Below are positions 3,750 to 11,651 of a stretch of DNA of 16,820 nt, one piece after another. The DNA comes from a virus. How positions within the stretch are numbered: position 1 is the first letter of the stretch; each line of letters opens with the position of its first letter. The notes below the pieces were generated by a model. The model did no database searches. It was not told where the DNA came from and saw only the letters and a list, made by a program, of their open reading frames with translations. The translations under genes and the position numbers were made by a program. The stretch is from UHGV virus genome UHGV-0364865; one strand, written 5' to 3'.

Positions 3750-4474
3750 TAAGCAGCCTCTCCTGTTACTTTCAGCATTCCGTTATCGAGCAGCTTTCTG
3801 GTCAGCCACTGTTGGCCACGTCCGGTGATTTTTGTAGTGAACGATATCTGTATTCCGTGATTTGTGTTGACCGCTGTTTCTTTCACTGTGAAATAGCCGC
3901 GATCCATATATTCCTGCATTGGCACATTGCGCCGGGAACCTGAAGCAATAAGGATTTTGTGATCGCGCATCCACGCAAACAGTTTGTTTGGACCAATTCC
4001 AACAACCTTTGCAAAGTTTCCAATCAAAATTCCGCTGGCCTCGCCAACGCGATCGGCAAACTCAACTTTAGGTGCGGCAATTGCGAGCTGGTTTTCCAGT
4101 TGCATTTTCTGCTCAGCAAGGTTAGCAGCAAGGCGCAACGCTTCTGGTAGCGTTTTGGGGATATTAACCGCAGCTTCTTCAAGCTCTCGCCAACGGTCAA
4201 CAAGGCGAGCGGTGAACTCTGGCGACAACTGGGCGACGACAATAATGCTGTCTCGCTTTCCTTGTTCGCCCTCGAAGACGTAGAAATCACGCTTCCCGGT
4301 AATAACACCTAAATCATTGATTATGTTAGTGTGCTGCAATGCAGGAGGCTTGATAACGCCACGTTTCACCAATCTATCTATGGATACTTTTACATTGCTA
4401 TGGCGGCTTTCTACCAACTCAGCGATTTCAATGCTTGTCATTTTGATGGCATTGCCATTTATTAACTCATTCAT
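3749..4474 (-). CDS. Rha-family phage regulatory protein fused to a KilAC-type antirepressor domain
   Basis: 241-aa ORF; N-terminal region (TSIEIAELVESRHSNVKVSIDRLVKRGVI) resembles the Rha domain; C-terminal region (..FAKVVGIGPNKLFAWMRDHKILIASGSRRNVPMQEYMDRGYF) resembles the KilAC antirepressor domain; good SD (GAGGAAG) before the first ATG. Confidence 0.65.
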   Translation of the reverse strand: MNELINGNAIKMTSIEIAELVESRHSNVKVSIDRLVKRGVIKPPALQHTNIINDLGVITGKRDFYVFEGEQGKRDSIIVVAQLSPEFTARLVDRWRELEEAAVNIPKTLPEALRLAANLAEQKMQLENQLAIAAPKVEFADRVGEASGILIGNFAKVVGIGPNKLFAWMRDHKILIASGSRRNVPMQEYMDRGYFTVKETAVNTNHGIQISFTTKITGRGQQWLTRKLLDNGMLKVTGEAA

Positions 4475-4637
4475 CGTCTTCTTCCTCGAACATTGAGCTA
4501 TTCGGATCGCTCATCAGTTCTGCGCAGCAGTGCTCACATACGTGAACTTCCAGCACATGCAGCTTCTGACCGCAATTAGCGCACGTTAAAGCCCGCTCGA
4601 CGCTTTCTTGTTCGTAACTTCGATTTGGGTCAATCAC
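4467..4637 (-). CDS. ninF: NinF-like small zinc-finger protein
   Basis: Ends ...[48 protein letters not shown], matching lambda NinF as recalled. Start placed at a GTG (4635-4637) that overlaps the ninE stop (GTGA); the tracked ORF extends upstream to an ATG at 4679 that would overlap ninE by 46 nt. Confidence 0.65.
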
Positions 4638-8682: not shown

Positions 8683-8982
8683 TTAAAAATCCATCTGGAT
8701 TTGTTCAGAACGCTCGGTCTTGCACACCGGGCGTTTTTTATTGGTGATTTCATCAAGCGCATACTTAAAAGCCCTGCTAATCGGACTGATGTCTGATGCC
8801 ATTCCGAAAGCACACAAGACCGAAGCAATAAATCTCCAGTCCGTTCTGCTTATCTTCGATTCATGACAGCCAATCATCTTTGCCAGACCGCGCTGGGTAA
8901 GCGTTGACAGGTTGATGAGTAAATCTGTTTCTGCGCGATCAACGTCGCGCTGTGATAGTTTGCTGTAACTTGTTTGTTCCAT
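8683..8982 (-). CDS. cII: Transcriptional activator CII
   Basis: 99-aa ORF whose C-terminus ...ITNKKRPVCKTERSEQIQMDF matches the lambda CII C-terminus (..TNKKRPAATERSEQIQMEF) and has an HTH-like region; positioned between cro and the replication genes. Confidence 0.8.
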   Translation of the reverse strand: MEQTSYSKLSQRDVDRAETDLLINLSTLTQRGLAKMIGCHESKISRTDWRFIASVLCAFGMASDISPISRAFKYALDEITNKKRPVCKTERSEQIQMDF

Positions 8983-9067
8983 TTCTTAAGATTTCCAGTA
9001 GTGAATAGTTAGTTGAAAGGTATGCGTGGAAACGCATATGGCCTTAGTTGGTCAGATATCTTGGAAC

Positions 9068-9114
9068 TCGCTTTTCAGCGACGTAGGACGAATGTCCGTT
9101 GTTACAAAGAGCGG
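9068..9114 (-). promoter_or_regulatory. nutR-like site: boxA followed by two hairpins
   Basis: Minus strand reads CGCTCTTTGTAACAA (boxA-like, plus 9102-9113), then hairpin GGAC-AUUC-GUCC (plus 9087-9098), then hairpin UCGCU-GAAA-AGCGA (plus 9068-9081); lies between cro and cII as nutR does in lambda. Confidence 0.6.
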
Positions 9115-9123
9115 ATCCGCTTA

Positions 9124-9339
9124 TTAAGCGGCTTTGTGTTCCGGCGGGAACACGTCATCAAGACTGACTTTTGCGCCTAACTTGTTTAGGCACGCAACAA
9201 GAGCACGGCATGTTTTAAGGTCTGGGAAGCGACGACCAGATTCCCAATGTCCGATAGCTCCCTGTGTGCATCCAACTGCCTTAGCAAGTGTTGTTTGAGA
9301 GATATTCAGTGACTCTCGATATTTTCGTAGGTTGCTCAT
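9124..9339 (-). CDS. cro: Cro-like HTH repressor
   Basis: 71-aa product MSNLRKYRESLNISQTTLAKAVGCTQGAIGHWESGRRFPD...; its HTH recognition region (TQGAIGHW) is nearly the same as that of the divergent cI (TQGGIGHW); SD GGAGGG upstream. The 128-aa tracked ORF extends into the operator region and is rejected. Confidence 0.8.
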   Translation of the reverse strand: MSNLRKYRESLNISQTTLAKAVGCTQGAIGHWESGRRFPDLKTCRALVACLNKLGAKVSLDDVFPPEHKAA

Positions 9340-9450
9340 ATGCCCTCCATAGTAACCATAACGCAATAATACGATATGTACTTTTAGAATGCAAACAAAA
9401 AATACATCTTGTGCATGGATGATTTTAGTACAGAGCGTAATAATAAGGGT
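9340..9450. promoter_or_regulatory. Divergent immunity control region (OR-type) containing PR for cro and a PRM-type promoter for cI
   Basis: PR on the minus strand: TTGCAT (plus 9389-9394), 17-nt spacer, TATTAT (plus 9366-9371), then SD and the cro ATG. Imperfect palindromes (e.g. ATGCAAAC...TTGTGCAT at 9389-9416) and recurring TTTAG motifs are operator candidates; exact operators not resolved. Confidence 0.65.
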
Positions 9451-10110
9451 ATGAAAATGAAATGGTATGAACTGGCTAGATCCAGAATGAAAGAGCTCGG
9501 CATAACTCAAGAGAAGTTAGCCGAAGAGCTTGGTATGACGCAGGGTGGAATTGGTCACTGGTTGCGCGGATCTCGTCATCCATCTCTTGACGAGATTGGT
9601 GTGGTGTTTAAATACCTTGGTATTGATAACGTCTCATTCAACCACGACGGTACATTTTCACCTGTTGGCGAATACTCATCTGCCCCCGTTAAAAAACAAT
9701 ATGAGTACCCTGTTTTTTCTCATGTTCAGGCCGGGATGTTCTCGCCTGAGCTTAGAACCTTTACCAAAGGTGATGCGGAGAGATGGGTCAGCACAACCAA
9801 AAAAGCCAGTGATTGTGCGTTTTGGCTTGAAGTTGAAGGTAATTCCATGACCGCGCCAACAGGATCCAAGCCAAGCTTTCCTGACGGGATGTTAATTCTC
9901 GTTGACCCTGAGCAGGCTGTTGAGCCAGGTGATTTCTGCATAGCCAGACTTGGTGGTGACGAGTTTACCTTCAAGAAACTGATCAGGGATAGCGGTCAGG
10001 TGTTCCTACAACCACTAAACCCGCAATATCCAATGATTCCATGCAATGATAGCTGTTCCGTAGTAGGGAAAGTTATCGCTAGCCAGTGGCCTGAAGAGAC
10101 ATTTAGTTAA
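9451..10110 (+). CDS. cI: CI-type prophage repressor (HTH plus LexA-like S24 autopeptidase domain)
   Basis: 219-aa product from the ATG at 9451 (SD AAGGG upstream); N-terminal HTH; C-terminal S24 domain with catalytic Ser in GNSMTAP and Lys in FTFKKL; divergent from cro. Confidence 0.85.
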
Positions 10111-10140
10111 CAGCCTCACCACTCTAAAACACACAACAAT

Positions 10141-10170
10141 AACCCGACCTTAGCGTCGGGTTTTCTTTTT
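10141..10170 (+). terminator. Intrinsic terminator downstream of cI
   Basis: Perfect 8-bp stem AACCCGAC (10141-10148) / GTCGGGTT (10155-10162) with a 6-nt loop, followed by TTTTCTTTTT. Confidence 0.75.
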
Positions 10171-10236
10171 CCAAAATATAAACCCATTAAATACAAAGCG
10201 TTATAAAAAACTAAACCATATTTAGAACATTTTGTA

Positions 10237-10265
10237 TTGACTCAGTAAAGTACACATCGTACTAT
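10237..10265 (+). promoter_or_regulatory. pL-type early-left promoter
   Basis: TTGACT (10237-10242), 17-nt spacer, TACTAT (10260-10265), about 190 nt upstream of N. Confidence 0.65.
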
Positions 10266-10311
10266 TTAGCCATCAGCAGGAAGCTGGAAGCCAAACGGAA
10301 CAGACTGGCAG

Positions 10312-10357
10312 GCTCTTTAAACAACGTCGAACACTCGACTACGTGGCTGAAAAGCCA
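10312..10357 (+). promoter_or_regulatory. nutL-like site: boxA followed by two hairpins
   Basis: GCTCTTTAAACAA (boxA-like, 10312-10324), hairpin GTCGA-ACAC-TCGAC (10326-10339), then hairpin TGGCT-GAAA-AGCCA (10344-10357); same architecture as the nutR candidate. Confidence 0.6.
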
Positions 10358-10455
10358 GATCACCCAACCACATAAGCTGTGGGATGCAATGCCGAAGCAA
10401 CCGTCTCAGGAGGGGCTTCGAGATTGCATCGCCAAAGTTTATTCGGGAGGAATCT

Positions 10456-10728
10456 ATGTCCAGAAAAACAGAATTTAAAGGAACCGCAGCTTCTCGCCGT
10501 AGAGCTCGTCGTGCAAATCTGCAAAGTCAGGAGGCGATCAGCTCCGACAAGCTACACAGGCCAACCCCTTCACGAGTGGTCTTGCAATGCAAGCGCAAAC
10601 CAGCAATGAGAGCAGAAGTGATAACTCTGACAACGTTGACCAGAAAATATGAAGGTTCAACTTGTCTTCCAAACGTAGCTCTTTACGCGGCAGGCTACCG
10701 GAAATCCAAACAACTGACAGCAAGATGA
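10456..10728 (+). CDS. N: N-type transcription antiterminator
   Basis: 90-aa product from the internal ATG at 10456 (SD GGGAGG upstream); N-terminal arginine-rich motif (GTAASRRRARRANLQ); C-terminus ...VALYAAGYRKSKQLTAR resembles the P22 gp24 C-terminus as recalled. Confidence 0.75.
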   Translation: MSRKTEFKGTAASRRRARRANLQSQEAISSDKLHRPTPSRVVLQCKRKPAMRAEVITLTTLTRKYEGSTCLPNVALYAAGYRKSKQLTAR

Positions 10729-10786
10729 CTTGTGTTGGTCGCCAGAAAATGAAATTAGGCAGCAAACCACTTATTTGAGGTGATAT

Positions 10787-11038
10787 ATGGAATTTCATGA
10801 AAGTGCGATTTATGATTTTCGCGCTAACGCAAATTCAGTAAAACCACAGCCAATTGCAGTTCTTTTTAAAACAATGGGTGCGTGGGCTGTTTTATGCTTC
10901 GCCGCTGATGACACTGATGCAAGAATGGCAATAGGCCAAGAGATGGAGATGGACCCGACAAACGATGAATTCATAATTTATGGCGCTCCATCTAATTACT
11001 TACTTGATACCTGCAACATTTACAACAAGGCTGCCTGA
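10787..11038 (+). CDS. Hypothetical small acidic protein
   Basis: 83-aa ORF with SD GAGGTG upstream; no recognisable motif. Confidence 0.5.
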   Translation: MEFHESAIYDFRANANSVKPQPIAVLFKTMGAWAVLCFAADDTDARMAIGQEMEMDPTNDEFIIYGAPSNYLLDTCNIYNKAA

Positions 11039-11077
11039 TGGTGGCCTTTATTTTTGGCATAAACAACAGAGGCTAAC

Positions 11078-11532: not shown

Positions 11533-11625
11533 GCGCCTATAGCAGATTTACGAGTCTGCTATGTGAGCAATGTCGCTCGTAACTAAACAGGAGCCGACTT
11601 GTTCTGATTATTGGAAATCTTCTTT

Positions 11626-11651
11626 GCCCTCCAATGTGAGGGCGATTTTTT
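11626..11651 (+). terminator. tL1-like intrinsic terminator
   Basis: Stem GCCCTC (11626-11631) / GAGGGC (11638-11643) with a 6-nt loop, followed by GATTTTTT. Confidence 0.7.

What the first reader, a model, noticed from the sequence alone, without database searches (positions are those of the whole stretch)
10312..10357. nutL and nutR share a boxA plus two-hairpin architecture with a GAAA-loop boxB candidate
nutL (10312-10357, plus strand) and nutR (9068-9114, minus strand) both show a boxA-like element (GCTCTTTAAACAA / CGCTCTTTGTAACAA), a short hairpin (GTCGA-ACAC-TCGAC / GGAC-AUUC-GUCC), then a 5-bp stem with a GAAA loop (UGGCU-GAAA-AGCCA / UCGCU-GAAA-AGCGA). Lambda boxB has a GAAAA pentaloop, so a tetraloop variant and the extra hairpin imply a distinct N-boxB specificity.
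Basis: seen in the sequence. Interest (0 to 1): 0.4.

Follow-up and report, generated by a model that had tools for sequence, protein, structure and literature searches.

The report
Phage nut sites with tetraloop boxB
These are the two N-utilisation (nut) sites of a lambda-like E. coli prophage. Their layout is already known from Shiga-toxin phages, but the protein-binding hairpin has a true four-base GNRA loop that always travels with one particular version of the phage N protein.

Summary
nutL (10312-10357, +) and nutR (9113-9068, -) each carry an rrn-type boxA, a short spacer hairpin, an invariant UACG and a 5-bp stem with a GAAA loop. Each lies downstream of its early promoter (PL, PR). 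An N-family antiterminator gene follows nutL.

The two-hairpin layout is not new. Phage H-19B has the same spacer hairpin, and VT2-Sakai and 933W already annotate these elements as putative nut sites.

The informative part is the loop. Across about 220 related loci:
- N proteins with the arm RRRxRRAxLQ (this window) always pair with a GNRA tetraloop (GAAA or GCAA) at both nut sites.
- N proteins with the H-19B arm (RRRERLK...) always pair with GACAA.
- A natural hybrid N (L193) switches both loops together with the arm.
- The window's nutR and H-19B's nutR are about 95% identical and differ in boxB by one loop base.

Covariation supports both stems, including the pair that closes the loop.

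So a distinct N-boxB pairing is well supported by comparison but not shown biochemically. The extra hairpin is unrelated to that specificity. I rate this a modest new variant of a well-known system.

The parts
10237..10265 (+). PL-like early leftward promoter (TTGACT-17-TACTAT). The transcript would start about 10272 with AUCAGCAGG, as in lambda PL.
   Evidence: Consensus scan. The equivalent site is annotated 'putative major leftward promoter' in VT2-Sakai. The similarity of the start sequence to lambda PL is from memory.
10312..10324 (+). nutL boxA, rrn-type (GCUCUUUAAACAA)
   Evidence: Sequence. rrn boxA is UGCUCUUUA followed by ACAA; lambda boxA is CGCUCUUA (PMC2724277). Conserved in 39 distinct nutL variants of this N class.
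10326..10339 (+). nutL spacer hairpin GUCGA-ACAC-UCGAC
   Evidence: Folds at -5.7 kcal/mol. The stem is kept while the loop varies (CUC, ACAC, ACUC, AUC, GCAC) among phages with the same N. Compensatory stem changes occur across relatives.
10340..10343 (+). Invariant UACG linker between the two hairpins
   Evidence: Invariant columns in alignment A2.
10344..10357 (+). nutL boxB: 5-bp stem UGGCU/AGCCA with GNRA tetraloop GAAA
   Evidence: Folds at -7.1 kcal/mol, z -4.4. 141 of 141 informative loci of this N class have GAAA or GCAA here. The closing pair covaries U-A to C-G.
10371..10440 (+). Long stable hairpin in the N leader between nutL and the N ribosome-binding site
   Evidence: Fold of 10270-10470: -69.4 kcal/mol, z -4.35. 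Its function was not tested.
10456..10728 (+). N antiterminator gene (90 aa), arm GTAASRRRARRANLQSQEA
   Evidence: Pfam PF25694 N_peptide, 111 bits. Translation. 100% identical N in YYZ-2008, Stx2a_WGPS6 and the PA-series phages.
9366..9395 (-). PR-like early rightward promoter (TTTGCA-18-TATTAT)
   Evidence: Consensus scan.
9124..9339 (-). cro (71 aa, HTH)
   Evidence: Pfam HTH_3. Annotated cro in relatives.
9099..9113 (-). nutR boxA, rrn-type (CGCUCUUUGUAACAA)
   Evidence: Sequence. Pattern match. Lies within the 'putative N-utilization rightward' feature of VT2-Sakai.
9086..9097 (-). nutR spacer hairpin GGAC-AUUC-GUCC, identical to that of H-19B nutR
   Evidence: Folds at -5.2 kcal/mol. H-19B oligo RS663. 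H-19B record alignment.
9068..9081 (-). nutR boxB: UCGCU-GAAA-AGCGA. Differs from H-19B boxB (UCGCU-GACAA-AGCGA) by one loop base.
   Evidence: 117 of 117 class-A loci in which nutR was found have GAAA or GCAA.
8683..8982 (-). cII, first gene downstream of nutR and the tR1 region
   Evidence: Pfam Phage_CII, 117 bits. VT2-Sakai annotates a rho-dependent terminator between nutR and cII.
11027..11048 (+). Terminator-like hairpin with T-run downstream of N (candidate tL)
   Evidence: Consensus scan only.
11624..11645 (+). Second terminator-like hairpin with T-run in the leftward operon
   Evidence: Consensus scan only.

Best explanation
These are the nutL and nutR sites of a lambdoid prophage.

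Proposed mechanism:
- Each site is transcribed from an early promoter (PL or PR).
- The rrn-type boxA recruits host NusB/S10.
- A short spacer hairpin, flanked by invariant ACAAC and UACG, tucks away the spacer RNA.
- The second hairpin is boxB: a 5-bp stem closed by U-A and capped by a true GNRA tetraloop (GAAA). It is bound by the arginine-rich N-terminus (GTAASRRRARRANLQSQ) of the phage's own 90-aa N protein.
- N then uses its conserved C-terminus (CLPNVALYAAGYRKSKQLTAR) and host NusA to make RNA polymerase read through the downstream terminators.
- The tetraloop and this arm form a matched pair, distinct from the GACAA-pentaloop pair of H-19B/933W/P22 and the GNRNA-pentaloop pair of lambda.

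Shown here: position, sequence, foldability, covariation of both stems, and strict co-occurrence of arm class and loop type.

Inferred: N binding, Nus-factor use, and actual discrimination between loops.
For: - Gene context is cII-cro-cI-N, with promoters facing each nut site.
- N belongs to Pfam N_peptide, 111 bits.
- The same elements are annotated 'putative N-utilization leftward/rightward' in VT2-Sakai and as nutL/nutR in 933W.
- The module occurs twice in the window against 0 expected.
- Structure counts on 37 distinct nut sequences: 95.9% of cells paired against 72.1% in shuffles; 7 of 10 pairs change on both sides; slid controls give 26-48%.
- Arm versus loop: class A (RRRxRRAxLQ) has GAAA or GCAA at nutL in 141/141 informative loci and at nutR in 117/117. 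Class B (RRRERLK) has GACAA at nutL in 79/79 and at nutR in 75/75.
- The matched pairs are separated by 1.4-3.7 kb of many different immunity modules: 44 cro-end contexts and more than 20 size classes per N class.
- Hybrid L193 has a class-A-like N body and leader but a class-B arm tail, and has GACAA at both sites.
- The window's nutR-tR1 region is about 95% identical to H-19B, with a single-base loop difference.
- Positive controls behave as known: P22-type arm with GACAA; lambda-type Trp arm with GAAAA or GAAGA.
- The loop varies only as GNRA allows (GAAA, GCAA), and the closing pair covaries U-A to C-G.
- The closest solved arm is phi21 N (12/20 identical). Its boxB adopts a GNRA-like four-base motif in the solved complex (PMC12550061).
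Against: - No binding or antitermination data exist for this N class in anything I could read.
- Co-occurrence counts are not phylogenetically independent. I can point to only a few independent switches: E. coli class A versus B, hybrid L193, and possibly L282/L289.
- nutL lies within 150 nt of N, so its match with N is partly trivial linkage.
- My extraction script required a 5-bp stem after UACG. The percentage paired for the boxB helix is therefore partly circular, although the filter lost only truncated or rearranged loci.
- For this window's nutL, ViennaRNA slightly prefers a competing boxA:boxB fold (-15.0 against about -12.8 kcal/mol).
- N peptides are known to tolerate some loop variation, so cross-recognition of GACAA or GAAAA is not excluded.
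Confidence: 0.8

Rival explanations
1. The first (spacer) hairpin is the real N-binding boxB. The GAAA hairpin is an accessory element.
For: The first hairpin is as stable as many boxB stems and also lies between boxA and the downstream genes. Sen-lab footprints on H-19B show N+NusA protection over both the spacer and boxB.
Against: The spacer hairpin's loop varies in length and sequence (CUC, ACAC, ACUC, AUC, GCAC, UGGAU, AUUC, AUGAC...) among phages with identical N arms. It therefore cannot carry a conserved recognition surface. It is the same in class A and class B nutR although the arms differ. The second hairpin's loop is conserved and tracks the arm. From memory, Neely & Friedman 2000 reported that deleting the H-19B dyad had little effect; that paper was not readable here.
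Confidence: 0.04
2. The GAAA loop is only a one-base deletion of the H-19B/P22 GACAA loop. It has no functional meaning, being either a decayed prophage or a neutral variant bound equally well by any N of this family.
For: nutR differs from H-19B by exactly one base in otherwise about 95% identical DNA. ARM peptides can be permissive: lambda N accepts many GNRNA loops (PMC12027372).
Against: The change is present at both nut sites in every one of more than 140 loci with this N, and never with the H-19B arm. It occurs in isolated phages with complete genome records, such as VT2-Sakai, Stx2 II, YYZ-2008, 2B8 and PhiR63_2. The loop varies only to GCAA. The hybrid L193 reverts both loops to GACAA together with the arm tail. 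In the P22 complex the looped-out C contacts His and Arg of the peptide (PMC12550061), so losing it should matter to a P22/H-19B-type arm.
Confidence: 0.12
3. The functional RNA is an extended structure in which boxA pairs with the loop and 3' arm of boxB, giving a regulatory switch that hides boxA or boxB.
For: This is the minimum-energy fold of the 61-nt pieces of both nutL and nutR in this window. The title of Neely & Friedman 2000 speaks of 'alternative NUT RNA structures'.
Against: z-scores are only about -1.6. It is the minimum-energy fold in 9 of 64 distinct relatives. The base that would extend the pairing (before GCU of boxA) varies among G, C, A and U with an unchanged boxB arm. The centroid of the 201-nt leader shows two separate hairpins. 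Co-transcriptional folding and NusB/S10 binding to boxA would favour the local hairpins (inference).
Confidence: 0.04

Closest known systems
H-19B / 933W N-nut system (Neely & Friedman 1998, 2000; Sen laboratory)
   Same: Same module order: boxA region, ACAAC, spacer hairpin, UACG, 5-bp boxB. The nutR spacer hairpin GGAC-AUUC-GUCC is identical, and the nutR-tR1-cII leader is about 95% identical. The N proteins share the N-terminal M[ST]R[RK]T.FKG...RRR.R, the ISS..LHRPT motif and the C-terminal CLPNVALYAAGYRKSKQLTAR.
   Different: The boxB loop is GACAA (5 nt) in H-19B and GAAA (4 nt) here. The H-19B arm continues as RLKAKALANGVLARE, with a 7-residue insertion, against RRANLQSQE here. H-19B N is 127 aa, this N is 90 aa, and overall identity is about 41%. 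H-19B boxA is degenerate (nutR CGCUAUUUU; no GCUCUU at nutL), whereas here both boxA are rrn-type consensus. H-19B is reported to be independent of NusB and boxA; that statement is from my memory of the 2000 abstract, which I could not read here.
Phage lambda N - boxB (GNRNA pentaloop; Legault 1998, Scharpf 2000)
   Same: Both have a 5-bp stem with a U-A closing pair and a GNRA-type fold bound by an N-terminal arginine-rich helix (PMC12027372). The arm core RRRxRRAxxQxQ resembles lambda's RRRERRAEKQAQ (the lambda sequence is from memory). nut sites sit downstream of PL and PR in both.
   Different: Lambda has a 5-nt loop with the fourth base flipped out, and a Trp that stacks on the loop. Here the loop is 4 nt and the equivalent arm position is Glu. 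Lambda has no spacer hairpin, and its boxA lacks the extra U (CGCUCUUA). The C-terminal halves of the two N proteins are unrelated.
Phage phi21 N peptide - boxB (PDB 1NYB; Cilley & Williamson 2003)
   Same: This is the closest solved arm: ESKGTAKSRYKARRAELIAE against EFKGTAASRRRARRANLQSQ, 12 of 20 identical. The phi21 loop forms a GNRA-like four-base motif in the solved complex (PMC12550061).
   Different: The phi21 boxB is a CUAACC hexaloop with a C-C flanking pair, not a GNRA sequence. It has no spacer hairpin that I know of.
Phage P22 N - boxB (GACAA pentaloop, PDB 1A4T)
   Same: The C-terminal RNAP-binding region of N is shared. The boxB stems are similar: xGCU...AGCx.
   Different: The P22 arm is GNAKTRRHERRRKLAIER. 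The looped-out C contacts His and Arg of the peptide. Here there is no looped-out base and no His.
E. coli rrn antitermination boxA
   Same: The boxA here has the consensus GCUCUUUA followed by ACAA.
   Different: rrn antitermination needs neither N nor boxB.

Membership tests
Lambdoid N-utilisation (nut) site | Lies in the early transcripts, downstream of PL (before N) and downstream of PR/cro (before cII) | tested here: met
   Gene order and promoters. Equivalent annotations in VT2-Sakai, 933W and HK106.
Lambdoid N-utilisation (nut) site | boxA consensus (CGCUCUUA or UGCUCUUUA) 5' of boxB | tested here: met
   GCUCUUUAAACAA and CGCUCUUUGUAACAA, compared with the reference sequences in PMC2724277.
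Lambdoid N-utilisation (nut) site | boxB stem-loop supported as a structure | tested here: met
   Helix 2 is 98.4% paired, with 3 of 5 pairs changed on both sides. nutL and nutR in this window differ by a compensatory G-C to C-G swap.
Lambdoid N-utilisation (nut) site | A cognate N protein with an N-terminal arginine-rich motif encoded by the same phage | tested here: met
   Pfam N_peptide, 111 bits. Arm at residues about 9-27.
Lambdoid N-utilisation (nut) site | N binds boxB and confers terminator read-through | not testable with these tools
   Only co-variation of arm and loop is available.
H-19B-type nut site | Dyad symmetry (hairpin) in the boxA-boxB spacer | tested here: met
H-19B-type nut site | P22-like GACAA pentaloop boxB | tested here: not met
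   The loop is GAAA at both sites. H-19B has GACAA.
Lambda-type boxB | GNRNA pentaloop with an extruded fourth base | tested here: not met
   The loop is 4 nt. The closing pair is confirmed by U-A to C-G covariation.
GNRA tetraloop hairpin | Loop sequence G-N-R-A closed by a Watson-Crick pair, with variation confined to N and R | tested here: met
   Only GAAA and GCAA occur among 141 nutL and 117 nutR of this class. The three-dimensional fold was not determined.

The most novel reading that the evidence does not exclude
The RRRxRRAxLQ arm together with a true GNRA-tetraloop boxB is a fourth natural N-boxB specificity class, alongside lambda (GNRNA pentaloop), P22/H-19B (GACAA pentaloop) and phi21 (hexaloop). 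It has not been characterised biochemically. It lacks any looped-out base, is widespread in Stx2 phages of E. coli O157:H7 and in Cronobacter- and Pantoea-type phages, and can be converted to or from the H-19B class by one loop nucleotide plus the C-terminal half of the arm. If true, it offers a natural test of what the extruded loop base contributes to specificity or NusA engagement, and an extra orthogonal peptide-RNA tethering pair.
Probability: 0.5. Interest if true: 0.45.

Novelty: new variant of a known kind. Interest (0 to 1): 0.3.

Why it matters
N-boxB is the textbook example of an arginine-rich peptide recognising an RNA hairpin, and it is widely used as a tethering tool. The three pairs with solved structures all use penta- or hexaloops that mimic a GNRA fold.

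A natural pair that uses the plain GNRA tetraloop, one base away from the H-19B/P22 loop, would show how small a change re-pairs a phage's antiterminator with its sites. It could also test the role of the flipped-out base.

The system drives early gene expression in many Stx2-converting phages, including VT2-Sakai.

The gain is incremental. The sites were already annotated, the hairpin layout was already studied in H-19B, and no new mechanism is implied.

Tried and rejected
- Rfam, permissive threshold, over 8900-10500: only chance-level hits, and no nut or boxB family matched.
- Full-length N against PDB sequences: no hit. The H-19B arm gave no hit. The class-A arm alone gave only phi21 N at E = 0.16.
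- Genome-contig scan with the N alignment: 12 loci, mostly partial. The useful diversity came from IMG/VR scans seeded with different N classes.
- Neely & Friedman 2000, Weisberg & Gottesman 1999, Cilley & Williamson 2003 and Thapar 2014 are not held. What I say about the H-19B dyad experiments and NusB independence therefore rests on memory of the abstract. Only the title was confirmed, through citations.
- Seven full-text searches found no paper describing a natural tetraloop boxB or this N class. That covers open-access text only and does not prove absence.
- The boxA:boxB extended fold was considered and rejected.
- The first hairpin as boxB was considered and rejected.
- Two early scripts failed only because of how files are named in /data.
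- My first translation call used a wrong frame.

Full report
WHAT IS THERE

The window carries a lambdoid immunity region in reverse orientation:
- cII, 8982-8683, minus strand
- cro, 9339-9124, minus strand
- cI, 9451-10110, plus strand
- a 90-aa ORF, 10456-10728, plus strand, that matches Pfam N_peptide at 111 bits

A PL-like promoter (10237-10265) faces the N gene. A PR-like promoter (9395-9366, minus strand) faces cro.

nutL, plus strand:
- boxA GCUCUUUAAACAA, 10312-10324
- GUCGA-ACAC-UCGAC, 10326-10339
- UACG
- UGGCU-GAAA-AGCCA, 10344-10357

nutR, minus strand:
- boxA CGCUCUUUGUAACAA, 9113-9099
- GGAC-AUUC-GUCC, 9097-9086
- UACG
- UCGCU-GAAA-AGCGA, 9081-9068

Each hairpin folds as proposed when taken alone. 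The shared 35-37-nt module occurs exactly twice in the window against 0.00 expected. The two boxB stems differ by a compensatory G-C to C-G swap.

IDENTITY OF THE ELEMENTS

The region is 93-98% identical to E. coli lambdoid and Stx-converting phages.
- In VT2-Sakai (AP000422) the same stretches are annotated 'putative N-utilization leftward' and 'rightward'. They carry the same GAAA loops and lie next to an N said to be 'similar to 933W L0080 and H-19B N'.
- 933W and HK106 annotate nutL and nutR at the equivalent positions.
- The identical N protein occurs in YYZ-2008, Stx2a_WGPS6, the PA-series O157 phages, 2G7b and phi-8.

Calling these nut sites is therefore not new.

THE EXTRA HAIRPIN IS KNOWN

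Antisense oligos used by the Sen laboratory give the H-19B nutR sense strand (PMC3526286 supplement):
- spacer CACAAUGGACAUUCGUCCUACG
- boxB UACGUCGCUGACAAAGCGAGUCCC

The deposited H-19B record confirms this. From the spacer hairpin through tR1 to the cII start, the window and H-19B are about 95% identical. The spacer hairpin is identical. boxB differs by one base (GA-AA against GACAA).

H-19B-class nutL has the same order: ACAAC, GAUUC-GAAUAU-GAAUC, UACG, GCGCU-GACAA-AGCGC.

From memory of the abstract of Neely & Friedman 2000 (title confirmed; paper not held): breaking one arm of this dyad inactivates NUT, compensatory changes restore it, and deleting it has little effect. The stem therefore seems to sequester spacer bases rather than act as a recognition element.

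My data agree with that reading. Among phages with the same N, the nutL stem is constant while its loop varies in length and sequence.

THE INFORMATIVE FEATURE IS THE LOOP

I collected N genes with flanks from IMG/VR, genome contigs and GenBank phages. I located N with an HMM and extracted nutL and nutR.

N proteins fall into arm classes. The counts are:

| N arm class | nutL loop | nutR loop |
|---|---|---|
| A: RRR[AE]RRAx[LM]Q (this window; also Cronobacter-like and Pantoea-like N of 90-105 aa) | GAAA or GCAA, 141/141 informative | GAAA or GCAA, 117/117 found |
| B: RRRERLK... (H-19B, 933W, HK97-like, 127 aa) | GACAA, 79/79 | GACAA, 75/75 |

- The only apparent exceptions are contig-end truncations (L053, L131) and one rearranged locus (L165).
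- Within a phage, nutL and nutR carry the same loop. No phage mixed GAAA with GCAA.
- Matched N and nutR are separated by 1.4-3.7 kb of many different immunity modules: 44 cro-end contexts and more than 20 size classes per N class. Near-identical cro ends occur with either class. The match is therefore not merely clonal.
- L193 is the most telling locus. Its N body and leaders are class-A-like, but the arm tail is class-B-like (RRRERLKSAAISRGVEA). Both sites have GACAA: UGGCC-GACAA-GGCCA and UCGCC-GACAA-GGCGA.
- Positive controls came out as known. P22-type arms sit with GACAA. Trp-containing lambda-type arms sit with GAAAA or GAAGA at both sites.
- A further small lineage (L282, L289; arm RNRRRARRAAQQEQ) has a CCGCA-GAGA-UGCGG hairpin after boxA and no spacer hairpin.

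STRUCTURE SUPPORT

On 37 distinct nut sequences (alignment A2), the two-helix model gave the following:
- 95.9% of cells paired, against 72.1% in shuffles
- slid-partner controls at 26-48%
- 7 of 10 pairs with changes on both sides

The spacer stem occurs as GUCGA/UCGAC, GGUGA/UCACC, GGCGA/UUGCC, GAUUC/GAAUC and GGAC/GUCC. The boxB closing pair covaries U-A to C-G, so the loop really is four bases and not a hexaloop on a 4-bp stem.

Caveat: my extraction required a 5-bp stem after UACG, so the boxB percentage is partly circular. The spacer helix was not a selection criterion. The filter lost only truncated or rearranged loci.

The competing boxA:boxB fold that ViennaRNA prefers for this window's 61-nt pieces is the minimum-energy fold in only 9 of 64 distinct relatives and shows no covariation.

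HOW IT MOST LIKELY WORKS

Shown:
- correctly placed nut modules
- conserved rrn-type boxA (UGCUCUUUA plus ACAA, against lambda CGCUCUUA; PMC2724277)
- two covariation-supported hairpins
- a loop restricted to GNRA
- a cognate N whose arm class predicts the loop

Inferred from the lambda, P22, phi21 and H-19B literature:
- NusB/S10 binds boxA. rrn-type boxA binds about 10-fold tighter than lambda boxA (PMC2800207).
- The N arm binds the boxB loop and the 5' side of the stem as a helix.
- NusA engages N and the spacer.
- The conserved C-terminus of N contacts RNA polymerase.
- The complex reads through tR1 before cII and through the terminator-like sites after N (11027-11048 and 11624-11645).

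Known boxB loops mimic a GNRA fold and flip out one base. In lambda it is the fourth base (PMC12027372). In P22 it is the C of GACAA, which touches His and Arg of the peptide (PMC12550061).

Here no base is available to flip out, and the arm has neither lambda's Trp (the equivalent position is Glu) nor P22's His. The closest solved arm is phi21 N (12 of 20 identical). Its hexaloop presents a GNRA-like four-base motif. That makes direct recognition of a plain GNRA tetraloop plausible.

COMPARISON AND NOVELTY

The system works like any N-nut system and passes the membership tests for a lambdoid nut site.
- It shares the H-19B layout but fails the GACAA criterion.
- It fails the lambda GNRNA-pentaloop criterion.
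- The site calls and the spacer hairpin are already known.
- The strict pairing of a true GNRA-tetraloop boxB with one arm class, one base away from the H-19B loop, is something I could not find described in seven full-text searches. Key subscription papers were unreadable, so prior description cannot be excluded.

I rate it a new variant of a known kind, of modest interest. A specialist would find it neat rather than surprising.

The anatomy is right, and the inference of a distinct specificity is supported by comparison. The extra hairpin is irrelevant to that inference and is not novel. H-19B and phi21, rather than lambda, are the informative comparators.

Noticed in passing
window 10728-10778 (+): Overlapping the last base of the N stop codon (TGA, 10726-10728), in another frame, the DNA encodes TCVGRQKMKLGSKPLI*. 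This looks like the C-terminal tail of lambda/phi21-type N proteins. Some N proteins in fetched loci carry such a tail fused in frame after the ...AGHRKSENIT motif (L094, L093, L226: ...CRGTQKFKGKSIPLI). The 90-aa N therefore looks like a form that lost this tail by a frameshift or stop. A reference listed in PMC3526286 (Franklin 1992) reports that the last 14 aa of lambda N are dispensable.
   Followed up: partly
window 10371-10440 (+): A long, very stable hairpin lies between nutL boxB and the N ribosome-binding site (GGGAGG at about 10446). The leader 10270-10470 folds at -69.4 kcal/mol, z -4.35. It may correspond to the RNase III-processed hairpin of the lambda N leader that governs N autoregulation (from memory). 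Not tested.
   Followed up: no
window 9117-9131 (both strands): The palindrome CCGCTTAATAAGCGG spans the cro stop codon, two bases upstream of the C that begins nutR boxA. The + strand scan flags it as terminator-like. Other cro types in relatives lack it.
   Followed up: no
window 10141-10162 (both strands): A symmetric hairpin AACCCGACCTTAGCGTCGGGTT lies just after cI, with T-runs on both sides. It is probably the bidirectional immunity-region terminator, annotated as the terminator for the pRM transcript in relatives.
   Followed up: no
window 10311-10357 (+) and 9113-9068 (-): The first four bases at boxA (GGCU at nutL, where the first G at 10311 precedes boxA; CGCU at nutR) equal the 3' four bases of the 5' arm of the boxB stem in the same site. 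This allows a competing boxA:boxB pairing. Across relatives the extra base is not conserved, so it is probably coincidental.
   Followed up: yes
L282 about 4100-4300 and L289 about 4100-4300 (upstream of N): A separate N lineage (arm DNARNRRRARRAAQQEQ) has boxA followed by UCUCCGCA-GAGA-UGCGGGGA. This is another GNRA tetraloop, on a longer stem and without a spacer hairpin. Its nutR was not identified.
   Followed up: partly
L165 about 4170-4500: A class-B locus in which part of the N leader and the start of N appear duplicated or rearranged upstream of N (…GGAGGTCTATATGACACGCAGAGCGCAATAACC…). As a result nutL is missing from the usual position.
   Followed up: no
class-A loci generally: Within every phage, nutL and nutR carry the same second loop base: GAAA with GAAA, or GCAA with GCAA, never mixed. 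Yet the same arm (RRRERRAHLQSEA) is found with either loop. This could reflect shared ancestry or concerted change. Not resolved.
   Followed up: no
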